Assembly (NCBI RefSeq): GCF_006345805.1
Contig: NW_021829876.1
Coordinates: forward strand, 1-37,088
From: Octopus sinensis
Lineage: Eukaryota
Reading direction: 5' to 3'
DNA: 37,088 nucleotides
The position numbers are program-made. Shown here piece by piece: positions 9,001-24,000 of the stretch. Every line of letters starts with the position of its first letter. Position 1 is the stretch's first letter.

Positions 9001-12000
9001 TGAGACTAACAAGTGTAGTAGTAGTAGTAGTAGTAGTAATAGTAGTAGTAGTAGTAGTAGTAGTAGTAGTAGTAGTAGTAGTAGTAGTAATAGTAGTAGT
9101 GGTGGTGGTGGTGGTAGTATTGATAATGGTGGTGGTGACAGCAGTAGTACTGATTGTGTTGGCGGTCATGGTAATGGTAGTAGGAGTAGTAGTTTTAGTG
9201 GTGGTGACGGTGGTGATTGTGTTGGCGGTGGTGGTGGTATCATTAGTGATGGTGGCAGTAGAAATAGTAGTAGTAGTATAGTAGTAGTAGTAGTAATAGT
9301 AGTAGTAGTAGTAGTAATGCTTGCAGGAGGAGTAGGACGAGGAGAAGTTATAGCAACAGCCGTAGTAGCAGTGAGTTTCTCTTGTATAACTATTTTTTTC
9401 TTTTTTTCTGGTGGGATAGGGTTTTGGTGGTTGGCAAGTTTCATGGCAGGGAGAAAACGGGAATGAGGGCAGGACAGGGTGCTTGGCAGTGGGAAGAAGT
9501 CCGTCTTATATCTATTTATTTATAATATCTATCTATTTTATTTATTTATTTATTTATCTATTTATTTATGTGTGCGTCGAACATAAAGAGCAGACAGAGT
9601 AGAGCTTATCAGCTTCCGTGCTTCGTGTGGGGTGGTGAACTCTGAGGTGACTTGTCAAAATCGATATCTGATAACAAGCGTTATGAAGGCCCTCAAGCCT
9701 ACGTGTAGCATGTAAGTATTATATATATATAGATATATATATATATATATATATATAATATATATATATACATATGTTATGTATATATATCATATATATA
9801 TATATATATGTATAATATATATATACATATGTATATGTATATATATACATACATATATATATATATATATATATATTGTATATATATATAATACATATTA
9901 TATATATACATACATACATATATATATATATATATATATATATACATATGTATATGTATATATATACATACATATATATATTATATATATATATATATAT
10001 ATATATATATATACGTATGTATATGTTATGTAATATATTATATATACGTATGTATATGTATATATATACATACATACATATATATATATATACATATATA
10101 TATATAAATACATATATATGATATATATACATGTATGTATGTATGTATGTATGTATGTATGTATGTATTTATGTATGTATGTATGTATGTATGTATGTAT
10201 GGAGGGTAGATTAAGTGTTGTCGAGGTGAGGAGAAGGTGGTGGGGAGAATAACAAAAACTAAGAACAGCGCAGCAATAACAACAATGACGTCGGTGATAA
10301 AGGTGATTACAACATCAATCGACAGCAACAACAAATACAACAACAACAACAACAACAACAGATATTTTATATAAAAATTCAGCAGTATCGCATCGATACT
10401 GAAACTTGTATGAAAAAAACTATTAAAAATCCTTATAATTATAATTATTTTAATGCGTAAGTTCAATCCCCCCCCACTCCCATCCAGTTCTCCGTAAAAA
10501 AAAAAAAACGCGCACATTTTGTATAACCTGTCTCTGCAATGCCTTCTTCAATCGAAATCTCTCATCACCCCCGGGCTTGGAAGTAAATGAAATTCATCGT
10601 CGTCATCATCATCATCATCATCATCATCAGCAGCAGCAGCTATTCAAGTATTTGTACCTGGAGACCTCCATTTCCAGCGACTTCGAGGGCCACCTCCCAG
10701 TGGTGTCGGGCGTCAACGAAGAGCCCTCGACTACAACAAGACGACCAAAGTTTTTTTTTTCCAAGGTCTGGGGTCTCCCGCCCTTAAGCCCTAGACCATC
10801 ACCTAATCACCCTTACCCGTCTTGTTGCTTAACAACAACAACAACAACAAAAAAAACAGCAGCAACAGCATCCCATCGCGCACTGGCTCGTAGGAGCAAT
10901 TCCTGCGGAAACCAAATCCTCTGATGGGCATCTCTTTGGAGACTGGGCCACGTCACTATATGACATCACTCTATGACGTCACTACAATGGTGTTGAACAT
11001 TACAGAACTTGAAGTAGTCGGTACCATTCAAAGGAATATGTGAAGATAGCAGGAGCAAATATACACAAGGTGAAGGACTTGAAGCTTGGTACCTGGACAG
11101 GTAAGTATATGCCATCGATCAACGTCGTAGATTGCCGGACAGATAGATTGGTGTTAAACTTTACGGCATGTTGTGTGCTTCAGACCTCCACACTGAAAAG
11201 AGCTGGGACGAGGTAAGTAGCAGGGAGGTTATCCTCGTTCAGAAATGGCCAAGAAAGGAATCTACTCTCTAATGGTCGAGAATAATTTATCGTCTGACCA
11301 TTTTGTCTTGACACATTCCGCCTTTGGCAGCACTTAAGCATCTGGTTTTTCGTTTCCTGTTTAAAAACCGCATTCCATTGCTCAAGCTGACTATCTGTAG
11401 CCAACGCCAGTGCACTAAGGTCGTGCTATCTGAAGATTTTTTCTGGATGGTGTCCAGGTATGATCTCCGTCTTAGGACACAATCAACTGCAGCTGATTTT
11501 GTTGTTATGGTGATGGTGTTCGGATTCCAGAAAAGATTAAGATTTAGCGTCTTGCCTCTGGAATATCGTCAGGAATTTGTCATACTCTACCAGACGGGCT
11601 ATACTGATGGTAGAAGTTCTACTTTAGCAATTTTGGAGGACCTAGTGGTGCAGAAGAGCATTAACATTTCGGGGAAAAAATCTAAGTCACGACAAGAATA
11701 AACTAGCTGGCCTGTTTTTGGAGGACGTCCAGGATGCTAAGTTTTCTTCCCACGGGTGTTCCGGATCCCAGTAATGAACTCATTTGCATACAGCCAATCA
11801 GAGCTCACCTTGACCTTGTTGTCAAGTTAACAAACACACTCTACCAAGTAAACTCAAGACGAAGAACGGTGCTGTAAGTCGACCGATCGCCAAGTTATTT
11901 TGGGGGCAAATAATTAGATTTGCATCTATACCTATTATCGGATTTTGTTAGAGGCCCCATATGGTAAAGACACGGATGGGAAAAATGTGGGTAGAGGGTG

Positions 12001-21000: not shown

Positions 21001-24000
21001 ATGATAAAAAGATTATCGGAATTCCTCCCACAGCCACCAGTCACCAGCGAAGAACGCCTGCTGCTGCTGCTGCTGCTGCTGTTGTTGTTGTTGCTGTTGT
21101 TGTTAAGCAACAAGACGGGTAAGGGTGATTAGGTGATGGTCTAGGGCCTAGGGGCGGGAGACCCCAGACCTTCGAAAAAAAAAACTTTGGTCGTCTTGTT
21201 GTAGTCGAGGGCTCTTCGTTGACGCCCGACACCACTGGGAGGTGGACCTCGGAGTCGCTGGAAATGGAGATCTCCAGGTCCAAATTCTTGGACGGCGGCT
21301 GCTGCTGCTGCCGTTGCTACATGAATACATGGTTACTACATGGTTTACTATTTCGCTGCTTCAAATGTCATTTCGATAATAAAACATGGGGCTTAAAAGT
21401 AAAACAAAAAAAAAACTGATATTGTATAAAACACATAACATAATATTACAAATGCAGCAGCAGCAGTAGCAGCAGCAGTAGTAGTAGTAGTAGTAGTAGT
21501 AGTAGTAGTTGTAGTTGTAGTAGTAGTAGTAGTAGTAGTAGTAGTAGTAGTAGTAGTTGTAGTTGTAGTAGTTGTAGTTGTAGTAGTAGTAGTAGTAGTA
21601 GTAGTAGTAGTAGTAGTAGTAGTAGTTGTAGTTGTAGTAGTTGTAGTTGTAGTAGTAGTAGTAGTAGTAGTAGTAGTAGTAGTTGTAGTTGTAGTAGTTG
21701 TAGTTGTAGTAGTAGTAGTTTTGTAGTAGTAGTAGTAGTAGTAGTAGTAGTAGTAGTAGTAGTAGTTGTAGTTGTAGTAGTTGTAGTTGTAGTTGTAGTA
21801 GTAGTAGTTGTAGTAGTAGTAGTAGTAGTAGTGTAGTAGTAGTAGTAGTTGTAGTTGTAGTAGTTGTAGTTGTAGTAGTAGTAGTTGTAGTAGTAGTAGT
21901 AGTAGTAGTAGTAGTAGTAGTAGTTGTAGTTGTAGTAGTTGTAGTTGTAGTAGTAGTAGTTGTAGTAGTAGTAGTAGTAGTAGTAGTAGTAGTTGTAGTT
22001 GTAGTAGTTGTAGTTGTAGTAGTAGTAGTTGTAGTAGTAGTAGTAGTAGTAGTAGTAGTAGTAGTAGTTGTAGTGTAGTAGTTGTAGTTGTAGTAAGTGT
22101 AGTAGTAGTAGTAGGAGTAGTAGTAGTAGTAGTAGTAGGAGTTGGTAGTGTAGTAGTTGTAGTTGTAGTAGTAGTAGTTGAGTAGTAGTAGTAGTGTAGT
22201 AGTAGTAGTAGTTGTAGTTGTAGTAGTTGTAGTTGTAGTAGTAGTAGTTGTAGTAGTAGTGTAGTAGTAGTAGTAGTAGTAGTAGTAGTAGTAGTAGTTG
22301 TAGTTGTAGTAGTTGTAGTTGTAGTGTAGTAGTTGTAGTAGTAGTAGTAGTAGTAGTAGTAGTAGTAGTAGTAGTTGTAGTTGTAGTAGTTGTAGTTGTA
22401 GTAGTAGTAGTAGTTGTAGTAGTAGTAGTAGTAGTAGTAGTAGTAGTAGTAGTAGTTGTAGTTGTAGTAGTTGTAGTTGTAGTAGTAGTAGTTGTAGTAG
22501 TAGTAGTAGTAGTAGTAGTAGTAGTAGTAGTATCATCAACAAAGACCGGCAACAATGATGAAGCGAGGTTTCCTCTATGTGGTCGGTTGACCACCTAAAA
22601 CAGCAGCCAAATCTTCAAATCGCACCACACAGCATTAGCATAACGTGATCCTGGTTTGGCTTTTCACAGAAAAAAAAATGAAATGGAAAAAGTGGTGGAC
22701 ATGGTTAGAAAGTCTTTGCTTAATGGTCTTCTCAGTCGGAGCTGTGCTGGGACTAAATATTCTTTTCTTCTCTAGGTACAAGGCCCGAAAATTTTAGAGA
22801 GGAGGCCAGTCAATTAGATCGACCCCGATACACAACTGGTACTTAAATTATCGACCCAGAAAGGGTGAAAGGCAAATCGACCTCGGCGGAATTTGAACTC
22901 AGAACGTAAAGACAGACGAAACATTGCTAAGCATTTCGTCCAACGTGCTAACGATTCTGCCAGCTCACCGCCTTAGCACTACCAAATATTGTTTTCTATT
23001 ATTGGCACAAGGCCCGAAATTTTGGGGAAGGGGCCAGTCGATTAGATCGACTCCAGTACACAACTGGTACTTAATTTATCGAAAGAATGAAAGGCAAAGT
23101 CGACCTCGGCGGAATTTGAACTCAGAACAAAAAGACAGACGAAATACCTATTTCTTTACTACCCACAAGGGGCTAAACACAGAGAGGACAAACAAGGACA
23201 GACAAACGGATTAAGTCGATTATATCGACCCCAGTGCGTAACTGGTACTGATTTAAACGACCCTGAAAGGATGAAAGGCAAAGTCGACCTTGGCGGAATT
23301 TGAACTCAGAACGTAGCGGCAGACGAAATACCTATTCATTTACTACACACAAGGGGCTAAACACAGAGAGGAAACACAAGCACAGACAAACGGATTAAGT
23401 CGATTACATCGACCTCAGTACTCAACTGGTACTTATTTAATCGACACCGAATGGATGAAAGGCAAAGTCGACCTTGGCGGAATTTGAACTCAAAACGTAG
23501 CGGCAGACCGGCAGACGAAATACCTATTTCTTTATTGCCCACAAGGGGCTAGACACAGAGGGGACAAACAAGGACAAACACATAATTTAATAATGACAAC
23601 AGCAAGAATAACAACGACGGTTACTATAAACAATAGCATCAACCACAACAACAACAGCCACAACAACAACAAAAACAGCAACAACAATGATAACGACAAT
23701 AACGATAAGAATCCTTACTACTAGAGGCACAAGACCTGAAATTTTGAGTGTGTGTGGCGGGGACACTGGGGTCTGTTATATCGACCCTGGTGCGTAACTA
23801 GTCCTTATTTCATCGAACCCGAAAGGGATGAAAAGCAAAGTCATCATCGGTGGAAGTTGAAATCAGAACGACGTGCGAACGATTCTACCAGCTTGTCACC
23901 TTAATAATGATGATAATAATAATAATAATAATAATAATAATAATAATAATAATAATAATAATAATGATAATAATAATAATAATAATAAAAATAATAATAA

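What the first reader, a model, noticed from the sequence alone, without database searches (positions are those of the whole stretch)
10645..21290. Unexplained 196-nt cassette duplicated as a convergent inverted pair 10.3 kb apart
Seen: 10645-10840 (+) and 21095-21290 (-) align without gaps with 8 substitutions, including 72 identical nt (10690-10761) and an identical T10 length. Both are bracketed by (CAG)n upstream and (AAC)n/(CAG)n downstream, and similarity stops at those repeats. It resembles none of the SINE/LINE/DNA elements I can recognise here and has no TIR, TSD or clear A/B boxes. Inference: paralogous small genes or terminal exons, a structured ncRNA family, or a microsatellite-targeted mobile cassette. 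A read-through transcript would fold the copies into a ~196-bp duplex, a potential ADAR or Dicer substrate.
Basis: partly seen in the sequence, partly recalled or inferred. Interest (0 to 1): 0.75.

Follow-up and report, generated by a model that had tools for sequence, protein, structure and literature searches.

The report
Microsatellite-embedded short repeat, two inverted copies
The two 196-base copies are real and belong to a small non-coding repeat family of octopus genomes that sits inside trinucleotide microsatellites, most likely an unclassified short retroposon rather than a gene, so it is a fairly ordinary piece of repeat biology.

Summary
10645-10840 (+) and 21095-21290 (-) align without gaps with 8 mismatches, 72 identical bases (10690-10761) and the same T10. 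Similarity ends at the flanking microsatellites; the flanks beyond them are unrelated.

It is not a gene. One frame is open, but 6 of the 8 differences change the residue. It has no Pfam, Rfam or tRNA match.

The only relative found among 1.84 billion protein representatives is one Octopus sinensis gene model, XP_036354656.1. That model runs through two further, directly repeated copies in shifting frames. So this is a repeat family seen at two or more loci, with four copies known.

Each copy has a sharp 5' end next to CAG- or CAT-type repeats. Each has a very stable 3' hairpin (z = -6.1) that ends 3 nt before an (AAC)n tail.

Best reading (about 0.5): a headless, non-autonomous retroposon lodged in CAG/CAT microsatellites. 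Its class is unproven, because no cephalopod genome or repeat library could be searched.

The ADAR/Dicer idea is physically possible but untested. Interest is low to moderate.

The parts
10645..10840 (+). Cassette copy 1 (body of the repeat unit, up to the start of its tail)
   Evidence: Ungapped match to copy 2 with 8 mismatches in 196 nt.
21095..21290 (-). Cassette copy 2, inverted relative to copy 1
10605..10639 (+). Upstream microsatellite of copy 1: (ATC)8 = (CAT)n, then (CAG)4. Five unshared bases (CTATT) follow.
21299..21310 (-). Upstream (CAG)4 of copy 2. Eight unshared bases (CCGCCGTC) follow.
10831..10869 (+). Tail of copy 1: (AAC)6 A8, then CAGCAGCAACAGC
21058..21104 (-). Tail of copy 2: (AAC)3 AGC (AAC)4, then (AGC)8
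10734..10827 (+). 3' hairpin of copy 1. It has a 10-bp perfect basal stem (10734-10743 / 10818-10827), a 3-bp step, a 14/14-nt internal loop that holds T10, a 10-bp upper stem and a 13-nt apical loop. It ends 3 nt before the (AAC)n tail.
   Evidence: -30 kcal/mol, z = -6.13, 0 of 200 shuffles as good.
21108..21201 (-). The same 3' hairpin in copy 2. Its upper stem is 12 bp, owing to the changes matching 10784 and 10787.
10751..10760 (+). T10 inside the hairpin's internal loop (copy 2: 21175-21184 on the + strand as A10)
   Evidence: The O. sinensis copies carry runs of 4 and 5 Phe codons at this place.

Best explanation
The cassette is one unit of a non-coding interspersed repeat family of octopus genomes. 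It is most likely a non-autonomous retroposon without a recognisable RNA-gene head, a 'headless SINE' or LINE-tail-derived element.

A unit has four parts:
- a fixed 5' end (CAAG...);
- a body of about 190 nt;
- a long, very stable 3' hairpin;
- 3 nt after the hairpin, an (AAC)n tail of about 7-9 units.

The units lie inside CAG/CAT-type trinucleotide microsatellites, with the CAG/CAT strand on the unit's sense strand.

Inferred mechanism: a transcript is copied into a nick in such a microsatellite by the reverse transcriptase of a partner LINE (target-primed reverse transcription). The partner would recognise the 3' hairpin plus repeat tail, as in LINE/SINE pairs that share a 3' end.

On this reading the two window copies are two young insertions, or an insertion and its local copy. 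They differ by a Jukes-Cantor distance of 0.042, and their inverted arrangement is incidental.

Shown: the duplication, its boundaries, the lack of coding constraint, the fold stability, and membership of a family with copies at a second locus in O. sinensis. Inferred: the RNA intermediate, the LINE partner and the target preference.
For: - Sharp unit boundaries. 3 of the 5 bases just before 10645 differ between the copies, against 8 of 196 inside. The outer flanks are unrelated.
- A-rich simple-repeat tail at one end only. It is present in both window copies. It is inferred in both O. sinensis copies from the residue strings LLLSNTNTNN and CCITTTPATP of XP_036354656.1.
- Microsatellite association. 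3 of the 4 (CAG) runs of 4 or more units in the window abut the copies, always in the same orientation. CAG-type repeats follow the tail in both copies. In the O. sinensis model, His/Cys/Gln-rich, microsatellite-like stretches precede both copies.
- A family, not a one-off. The single hit among 1,835,955,588 representatives contains two more copies in direct orientation about 28 residues apart. The rest of that protein has no match in the window, so it is a different locus.
- Non-coding and non-autonomous. The open frame shows 6 replacement and 2 silent differences. The O. sinensis model reads the same sequence in frames that shift relative to the window copies. None of the 52 ORF translations from 10454-21416 reaches a Pfam cut-off.
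- 3' hairpin directly before the tail: z = -6.13, 0 of 200 shuffles as good. The basal stem is identical in both copies.
- Genomic setting. The window's own tRNA-like SINE copies are bracketed by (TAA)n and form head-to-tail arrays.
- Published O. vulgaris annotation. It lists many RTE, Dong-R4, CR1 and Hero LINE families and 1,317 SINE families (PMC13282606: text part 1, supplement passages).
- Published octopus RTE. One O. vulgaris RTE has a 3' UTR made mostly of a microsatellite (PMC9115989, passages).
Against: - No RNA-gene head. ARAGORN finds no tRNA, Rfam finds nothing, and A/B-box matches are at chance level.
- T10 in the sense strand would stop RNA polymerase III, so a classical SINE transcript in this orientation is unlikely.
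- No LINE with the same 3' end is in the window.
- Target-site duplications cannot be read, because the flanks are repeats.
- Only four copies are known. Three protein-level searches found no further gene model carrying the unit, so a high copy number is not shown.
- At both loci the copies come in close pairs. That also fits local DNA-level duplication.
- The AAC-to-AGC switch in the tail lies at nearly the same distance in both window copies. This hints that part of the flanking repeat was copied together with the unit.
Confidence: 0.5

Rival explanations
1. The second window copy arose by a local DNA-level event: an inverted duplication, or a template switch or gene conversion seeded by the CAG/AAC repeats. 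It would not be an independent insertion. The family as a whole could even spread only in this way.
For: The copies are 10.3 kb apart and 96% identical, closer to each other than to the O. sinensis copies. At both known loci the copies occur as a close pair. The ungapped match runs through the microsatellites, and the AAC-to-AGC switch falls at a similar place in both.
Against: The 5-8 bases between the upstream (CAG)4 and the cassette differ in length and sequence, with 3 of 5 aligned bases mismatched. The flanks outside the repeats are unrelated. The same unit, with the same ends and tail, occurs at an unrelated locus in another genome.
Confidence: 0.13
2. It is a piece of a non-autonomous DNA element that carries microsatellites. 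Examples of the kind are the Helitron/Helentron-borne repeat units or tandem-repeat-containing MITEs described in bivalves.
For: The unit is about 190 nt, is joined to microsatellites, lacks a coding region and contains stable hairpins. Such composite elements exist in molluscs (PMC7492417 and PMC3879986; I saw only the search listing with the start of each abstract). In O. sinensis two units lie in tandem.
Against: There are no terminal inverted repeats. Reading the ends shows no 5' TC / 3' CTRR with a tight subterminal hairpin. No flanking L/R arms are shared between the two copies. The asymmetric A-rich tail at only one end is the mark of reverse transcription.
Confidence: 0.12
3. It is a functional structured small RNA gene family, or a retroposed copy of one. 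One example would be a hairpin-hinge-hairpin RNA followed by ACA, like an H/ACA snoRNA-derived retroposon.
For: The sense strand folds far better than shuffles in both copies (z = -3.74 and -3.80), and better than the antisense strand (z = -2.06). The 3' hairpin has z = -6.13. The most conserved stretch (72 nt identical) also appears unchanged, as 18 of 18 residues, in one O. sinensis copy.
Against: No Rfam family matches even at E <= 10 inside the cassette. There are 0 compensatory pairs of 47. The 5' half folds differently in the two copies. No promoter-like similarity exists upstream, where the flanks are unrelated. A 72-nt identical run among 8 differences is not unusual; my rough bound on its probability is about 0.2 (inference). 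One O. sinensis copy carries an insertion of about 70 residues in the apical loop region.
Confidence: 0.08
4. The two arms are the terminal inverted repeats of one 10.6-kb composite or foldback element.
For: The arms are inverted, with the fixed 5' ends facing outward.
Against: No direct repeat flanks the outer ends. None of the 52 ORF translations between and across the arms reaches a Pfam cut-off. The O. sinensis copies are in direct, not inverted, orientation.
Confidence: 0.03
5. They are paralogous protein-coding exons, with a polyQ/polyT-flanked peptide.
For: One sense frame is open through both copies and their microsatellites (ORFs 10454-10924 and 21041-21316). A Gnomon model in O. sinensis includes the sequence.
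Against: There are 6 replacement and 2 silent differences. The O. sinensis model reads the unit in other, shifting frames. There is no Pfam match, and no other protein among 1.84 billion representatives matches.
Confidence: 0.02

Closest known systems
Microsatellite-associated repeat families made by RTE LINE 3' ends (Lepidoptera; Tay et al. 2010, PMC2887409, abstract read) and the octopus RTE whose 3' UTR is mostly microsatellite (PMC9115989, passages)
   Same: Short shared sequence next to a simple repeat. The repeat is the element's own 3' tail. Many partial, non-coding copies.
   Different: Those units are the C-terminal RT coding end plus a very short 3' UTR of a known LINE, with variable 5' truncation. 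Here the 5' end is fixed in all four copies, and no LINE match could be found or searched for.
Microsatellite-specific non-LTR retrotransposons (R4/Dong, some HERO families, Togen in (TG)n; Kojima and Jurka 2015, PMC4640811, passages). The (TAA)n preference of Dong is recalled.
   Same: The element is bracketed on both sides by the same microsatellite, in a fixed orientation, and tends to form arrays.
   Different: Those are autonomous elements with RT and endonuclease. This unit is about 200 nt with no ORF. A CAG/CAT-type target was not mentioned in the passages I read.
SINEs and bipartite non-autonomous LINEs that share a LINE 3' end (Kojima 2018, PMC5786205, passages). The eel UnaL2/UnaSINE1 pair, with a 3' stem-loop followed by short repeats, is recalled and was not read here.
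   Same: Stable stem-loop immediately before a short tandem-repeat tail. Non-autonomous. Fixed ends.
   Different: No tRNA, 5S, 7SL or snRNA head. The quoted Ceph-domain motifs are absent or at chance level. The partner LINE is unknown.
Helentron-borne satellite-like repeats and tandem-repeat MITEs of bivalves (PMC7492417, PMC3879986; search listing only)
   Same: Units of 150-200 bp linked to a microsatellite in mollusc genomes, sometimes in tandem.
   Different: Those have conserved left and right flanking arms or short inverted repeats. None are shared here.
Inverted Alu pairs as ADAR substrates (recalled)
   Same: Two inverted copies of a short repeat could pair in one transcript. Here that would be 196 bp with 8 mismatches.
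   Different: Effective pairs are usually much closer together than 10 kb (recalled). Transcription across this interval is not shown.

Membership tests
SINE (classical) | 5' head derived from tRNA, 5S, 7SL or snRNA, with an internal pol III promoter | tested here: not met
   ARAGORN finds 0 genes. Rfam finds 0 at gathering scores and nothing in the cassette at E <= 10. B-box scan: 47 matches in the window against 33 +/- 5 expected, 10 of them in the window's tRNA-like SINE; the cassette has only 2-mismatch hits. A-box scan: 115 against 113 expected. T10 in the sense strand would terminate pol III.
SINE (classical) | 3' tail of A-rich or simple repeats | tested here: met
   (AAC)6 A8 in copy 1 and (AAC)3 AGC (AAC)4 in copy 2. 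AAC-like tails are inferred in both O. sinensis copies.
SINE (classical) | Target-site duplications and many dispersed copies | not testable with these tools
   The flanks are repeats, so duplications cannot be read. No cephalopod genome was available. Four copies at two or more loci are known.
Ceph-SINE superfamily | Ceph-domain, tested with the two motifs quoted in PMC5786205 | tested here: not met
   The 11-mer with up to 2 mismatches gives 7 matches against 5.4 expected, 1 of them in copy 1. The 23-mer with up to 3 mismatches gives 0 matches. Only these two motifs were tested, not the whole domain.
Microsatellite-specific non-LTR retrotransposon | Same microsatellite on both sides, in a fixed orientation | tested here: met
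   CAG-type repeats lie upstream and after the tail in both copies, all on the sense strand. With only two copies this remains weak.
Microsatellite-specific non-LTR retrotransposon | Encodes reverse transcriptase and endonuclease | tested here: not met
   No Pfam hit in or between the copies. The only RVT_1 match is at 2209-2769(-), far away. The unit could at most be a dependent of such an element.
Helitron / Helentron-derived element | 5' TC, 3' CTRR with a tight subterminal hairpin, or shared flanking arms | tested here: not met
   Ends read: CAAG... at the 5' end and ...GCTT(AAC)n at the 3' end. The hairpin has a 74-nt interior. No flanks are shared.
MITE / TIR transposon | Terminal inverted repeats and a fixed target-site duplication | tested here: not met
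   Only internal inverted repeats are present.
Any Rfam RNA family (including hammerhead ribozymes, snoRNAs, miRNAs) | Covariance-model match | tested here: not met
   The 8 weak hits at E of 1.3 or more all lie outside 10645-10840.
Protein-coding exon | Conserved reading frame under purifying selection | tested here: not met
   6 replacement and 2 silent differences. Frames shift relative to the O. sinensis copies.

The most novel reading that the evidence does not exclude
The unit is a member of an undescribed class of sequence-specific, headless retroposons. They would home to CAG/CAT trinucleotide microsatellites through a 3' hairpin plus (AAC)n tail, driven by a microsatellite-specific LINE of octopus not yet described. 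By inserting next to one another they would seed trinucleotide repeats and create inverted pairs. When transcribed together, such pairs would form long dsRNA in an animal with very active A-to-I editing.
Probability: 0.2. Interest if true: 0.5.

Novelty: new member of a known kind. Interest (0 to 1): 0.3.

Why it matters
If the reading is right, this adds one more unclassified short retroposon to a genome that already lists over a thousand SINE families. The mildly interesting points are the apparent preference for CAG/CAT-type repeats and the strong hairpin directly before the tail. It would help to explain shared microsatellite flanks in cephalopods and to find the partner LINE. It would matter more only if the genome-wide copies prove strictly microsatellite-specific, or if inverted pairs are shown to be edited or processed.

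Tried and rejected
- Rfam at gathering scores over the whole window, and at E <= 10 over 10400-11100: nothing in the cassette.
- ARAGORN: nothing.
- Pfam. One search listed 224 ORFs of 55 aa or more with entropy above 3.3. I gave 79 of them: all 52 from 10454-21416 plus 27 from other less repetitive stretches. Only RVT_1 at 2209-2769(-) passed its cut-off.
- Third copy, or similarity to the window's SINE or LINE pieces, by blastn at word size 7: none.
- Extended homology of the flanks: none.
- Protein-level search for further copies. Frame-2 translation against 1.84 billion representatives: 1 hit. The O. sinensis protein region 125-372: only itself among 904 candidates. Frame 0, longer proteins: only the same protein among 5 candidates. 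Frame 1 of copy 2, longer proteins: none of 55 candidates.
- Exact 30-mer of the core in prokaryotic genomes: 0 matches, as expected. This says nothing about cephalopods.
- Ceph-domain motifs and A/B boxes: at chance level.
- CpG observed/expected in the cassette (0.74-0.78) is not unusual for the window (0.87).
- The supplement of PMC13282606 holds tables only. Its repeat library is on Zenodo and could not be read.
- Papers. Searches turned up no description of this unit. That is four word searches, not proof that it is unpublished.
- Not checked: the closed collections metagenome contigs and viral contigs, any cephalopod assembly, Dfam and Repbase.

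
Full report
**Observation.** The two stretches are as described. 10645-10840 (+) and the reverse complement of 21095-21290 align without gaps, with 8 mismatches in 196 nt. 10690-10761 is identical, and T10 lies at 10751-10760 (A10 at 21175-21184 on the + strand). blastn gives E = 4e-72 and finds no third copy in the window, even at word size 7. The repeat finder reports the pair as the longest inverted repeat of the window (10625-10870 / 21065-21310, 246 nt, 93%). 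The extra 50 nt are microsatellite. 10,254 nt separate the copies, and their tails point at each other.

**Boundaries.**
- Upstream, copy 1 has (ATC)8(CAG)4 then CTATT. Copy 2 has (CAG)4 then CCGCCGTC. Of the 5 aligned bases just before 10645, 3 differ, against 8 of 196 inside, so the 5' end is sharp.
- Downstream, copy 1 has (AAC)6 A8 CAGCAGCAACAGC. Copy 2 has (AAC)3 AGC (AAC)4 (AGC)8.
- Beyond the repeats the flanks are unrelated. For the 3' flanks, 70 of 500 shuffles score at least as well; for the 5' flanks, 399 of 500 do.
- The window holds only four (CAG) runs of 4 or more units. Three of them touch the copies, always with CAG on the cassette's sense strand. The window is full of other microsatellites, but this particular association is not chance.

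**Not a gene.** One sense frame is open through both copies (ORFs 10454-10924 and 21041-21316). However, 6 of the 8 differences change the residue and 2 are silent, which is what neutral change gives. The other two sense frames and all antisense frames contain stops. None of the 52 ORF translations from 10454-21416 reaches a Pfam cut-off. Of the 79 translations sent (79 of 224 listed), only a reverse-transcriptase fragment at 2209-2769(-) does.

**Not a known RNA.**
- Rfam gives nothing at gathering scores for the window. At E <= 10 there are only 8 weak hits, all outside the cassette.
- ARAGORN finds no tRNA-like gene.
- A- and B-box scans are at chance level in the cassette. The B-box scan does pick up 10 copies of the window's tRNA-like SINE, which serves as a positive control.
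- Two Ceph-domain motifs quoted in PMC5786205 (passages) are absent or at chance level.

**Fold.**
- The sense strand folds much better than shuffled sequence in both copies: z = -3.74 (0 of 200 shuffles as good) and z = -3.80 (1 of 200). The antisense strand gives z = -2.06.
- The signal comes mainly from the 3' half. 10730-10832 alone forms one hairpin of -30 kcal/mol with z = -6.13 and 0 of 200 shuffles as good.
- That hairpin has a perfect 10-bp basal stem present in both copies (10734-10743 / 10818-10827; 21108-21117 / 21192-21201). It also has a symmetric internal loop that holds T10, and a 10-12-bp upper stem. It ends 3 nt before the (AAC)n tail.
- The 5' half, where 5 of the 8 differences lie, folds differently in the two copies. 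None of the 47 consensus pairs shows a compensatory change. With two sequences this neither supports nor refutes a selected structure.

**Relatives elsewhere.** No cephalopod genome could be searched, so I used the open frame as a probe.
- Among 1,835,955,588 protein representatives there is one hit at E <= 0.001. It is XP_036354656.1, an uncharacterised 372-residue model of Octopus sinensis.
- tblastn of that protein on the window shows that it runs through two further copies of the unit, in direct orientation.
- One copy spans about residues 128-268, with an insertion of about 70 residues at the place of the hairpin's apical loop. The other spans about residues 297-367.
- The two copies are separated by about 28 His/Cys-rich, microsatellite-like residues.
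- The model reads the unit in frames that shift relative to the window copies, so the copies differ by frame-shifting indels. No frame is conserved.
- Both O. sinensis copies start at the same point as ours (QVFGPG / QEFGPEG against QVFVPG / QEFGPG). Both end in AAC-like codon strings.
- The 18 residues that cover the window's 72-nt identical core are unchanged in one of them.
- The first 120 residues of the protein match nothing in the window, so this is another locus.
- Three further protein searches found no other carrier. An exact 30-mer is absent from prokaryotic genomes.
- Conclusion: the unit is a repeat family of Octopus, with four copies known at two or more loci. How many copies exist is unknown. 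That the window itself is from an octopus is inferred from this hit and from its SINE content.

**Setting.**
- The window carries at least 14 pieces of a tRNA-like SINE. Some lie in head-to-tail arrays of period 184 or 231, and several are bracketed by (TAA)n.
- The O. vulgaris annotation lists 176 RTE, 51 Dong-R4, 169 CR1 and 14 Hero LINE families and 1,317 SINE families. Among recently active SINE families, 893 of 900 are unclassified (PMC13282606: text part 1, supplement passages).
- One octopus RTE has a 3' UTR made mostly of microsatellite (PMC9115989, passages).
- Non-LTR elements of the R4, HERO and NeSL groups include microsatellite-specific families (PMC4640811, passages).
- RTE 3' ends generate microsatellite-flank families in Lepidoptera (PMC2887409, abstract).

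**Most likely mechanism (inference, confidence about 0.5).** The unit is a non-autonomous retroposon without a recognisable head. Its transcript would be recognised through the 3' hairpin plus (AAC)n tail by a LINE reverse transcriptase. It would then be copied into a nick within a CAG/CAT-type microsatellite, which leaves that repeat on both sides. The pairwise Jukes-Cantor distance of 0.042 makes the two copies young. On the calibration quoted in PMC13282606 (distance 0.09 from consensus is about 25 million years), this comes to roughly 6 million years, if neutral and if the same rate applies.

Points against this reading:
- there is no pol III head;
- T10 lies in the sense strand;
- no partner LINE is seen;
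- target-site duplications cannot be read;
- only four copies are known, in close pairs at both loci;
- the AAC-to-AGC switch sits at a similar position in both tails.

The last two points also fit local DNA-level copying.

**Rivals.**
- Local inverted duplication or conversion (0.13).
- A DNA element of the Helentron or tandem-repeat-MITE kind (0.12). No shared arms, terminal inverted repeats or Helitron ends were found.
- A structured RNA gene or its retroposed copy (0.08).
- Terminal repeats of a 10.6-kb element (0.03). The direct orientation in O. sinensis speaks against this.
- Coding exons (0.02).

**The dsRNA idea.** If one transcript covered both arms, they could form a 196-bp duplex with 8 mismatches, of -384 kcal/mol. 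This compares with -59 and -74 kcal/mol for the separate folds. The longest perfect run would be 72 bp. That is enough for ADAR in principle. Nothing here shows that such a transcript exists. The 10-kb spacing is large compared with inverted repeats known to drive editing (recalled). Two much tighter inverted repeats in the same window would be better candidates: 2739-3144 and 28565-28913.

**Limits.** I could not search any cephalopod assembly, Dfam, Repbase or the Zenodo repeat library. Copy number, empty sites, the partner LINE, expression and editing therefore remain open. No published description turned up in four word searches, which does not show that none exists.

**Verdict.** This is a real feature and an ordinary kind of thing: a probably unclassified short retroposon family tied to trinucleotide repeats. 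Interest 0.3.

Noticed in passing
2739-3144: MITE-like unit of about 406 bp. Its 107-nt terminal arms are 96% complementary with 192 nt between them, and TA lies on both sides. It sits next to the 5' end of the reverse-transcriptase fragment. It would fold into a hairpin dsRNA far more readily than the 10-kb pair.
   Followed up: partly
28565-28913: Near-palindrome with 155-nt arms 87% complementary and a 39-nt spacer, embedded in (TA)n. Probably another foldback or MITE-like element.
   Followed up: partly
6201; 19035-19590; 22874-26600; 31551; 36035: At least 14 pieces of a tRNA-like SINE. A B-box-like GAGTTCAAATTCCGCC lies on the strand opposite to the listing. Some pieces form head-to-tail arrays of period 184 (23080-23580, 26078-26551) and 231 (19035-19473). 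Several copies are bracketed by (TAA)n (23902-24013, 24242-24274, 24572-24622). This suggests insertion into (TAA)n, as for Dong-type LINEs (the Dong preference is recalled).
   Followed up: partly
1626-2769 (-): LINE remnant. RVT_1 matches at 2209-2769 (E = 1.7e-15), followed by a further open frame at 1626-2132. Its clade was not determined.
   Followed up: partly
21465-22532 and 9015-9316: A 1.07-kb (AGT)n array with regular variant units lies just outside copy 2, and a smaller (GTA)n/(AGT)n array lies 1.3 kb outside copy 1. Both are on the + strand, so they are not mirrored with the cassettes.
   Followed up: no
14300-14694 ~ 3642-4047; 16278-16538 ~ 27763-28022; 17917-18062 ~ 1317-1463: Three further dispersed repeat pairs, 84-86% identical and unclassified. 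Several end at or next to microsatellites.
   Followed up: no
P0001 (XP_036354656.1) residues 179-248: One O. sinensis copy of the unit carries an insertion of about 70 residues at the hairpin's apical loop. The insertion matches nothing in the window.
   Followed up: no
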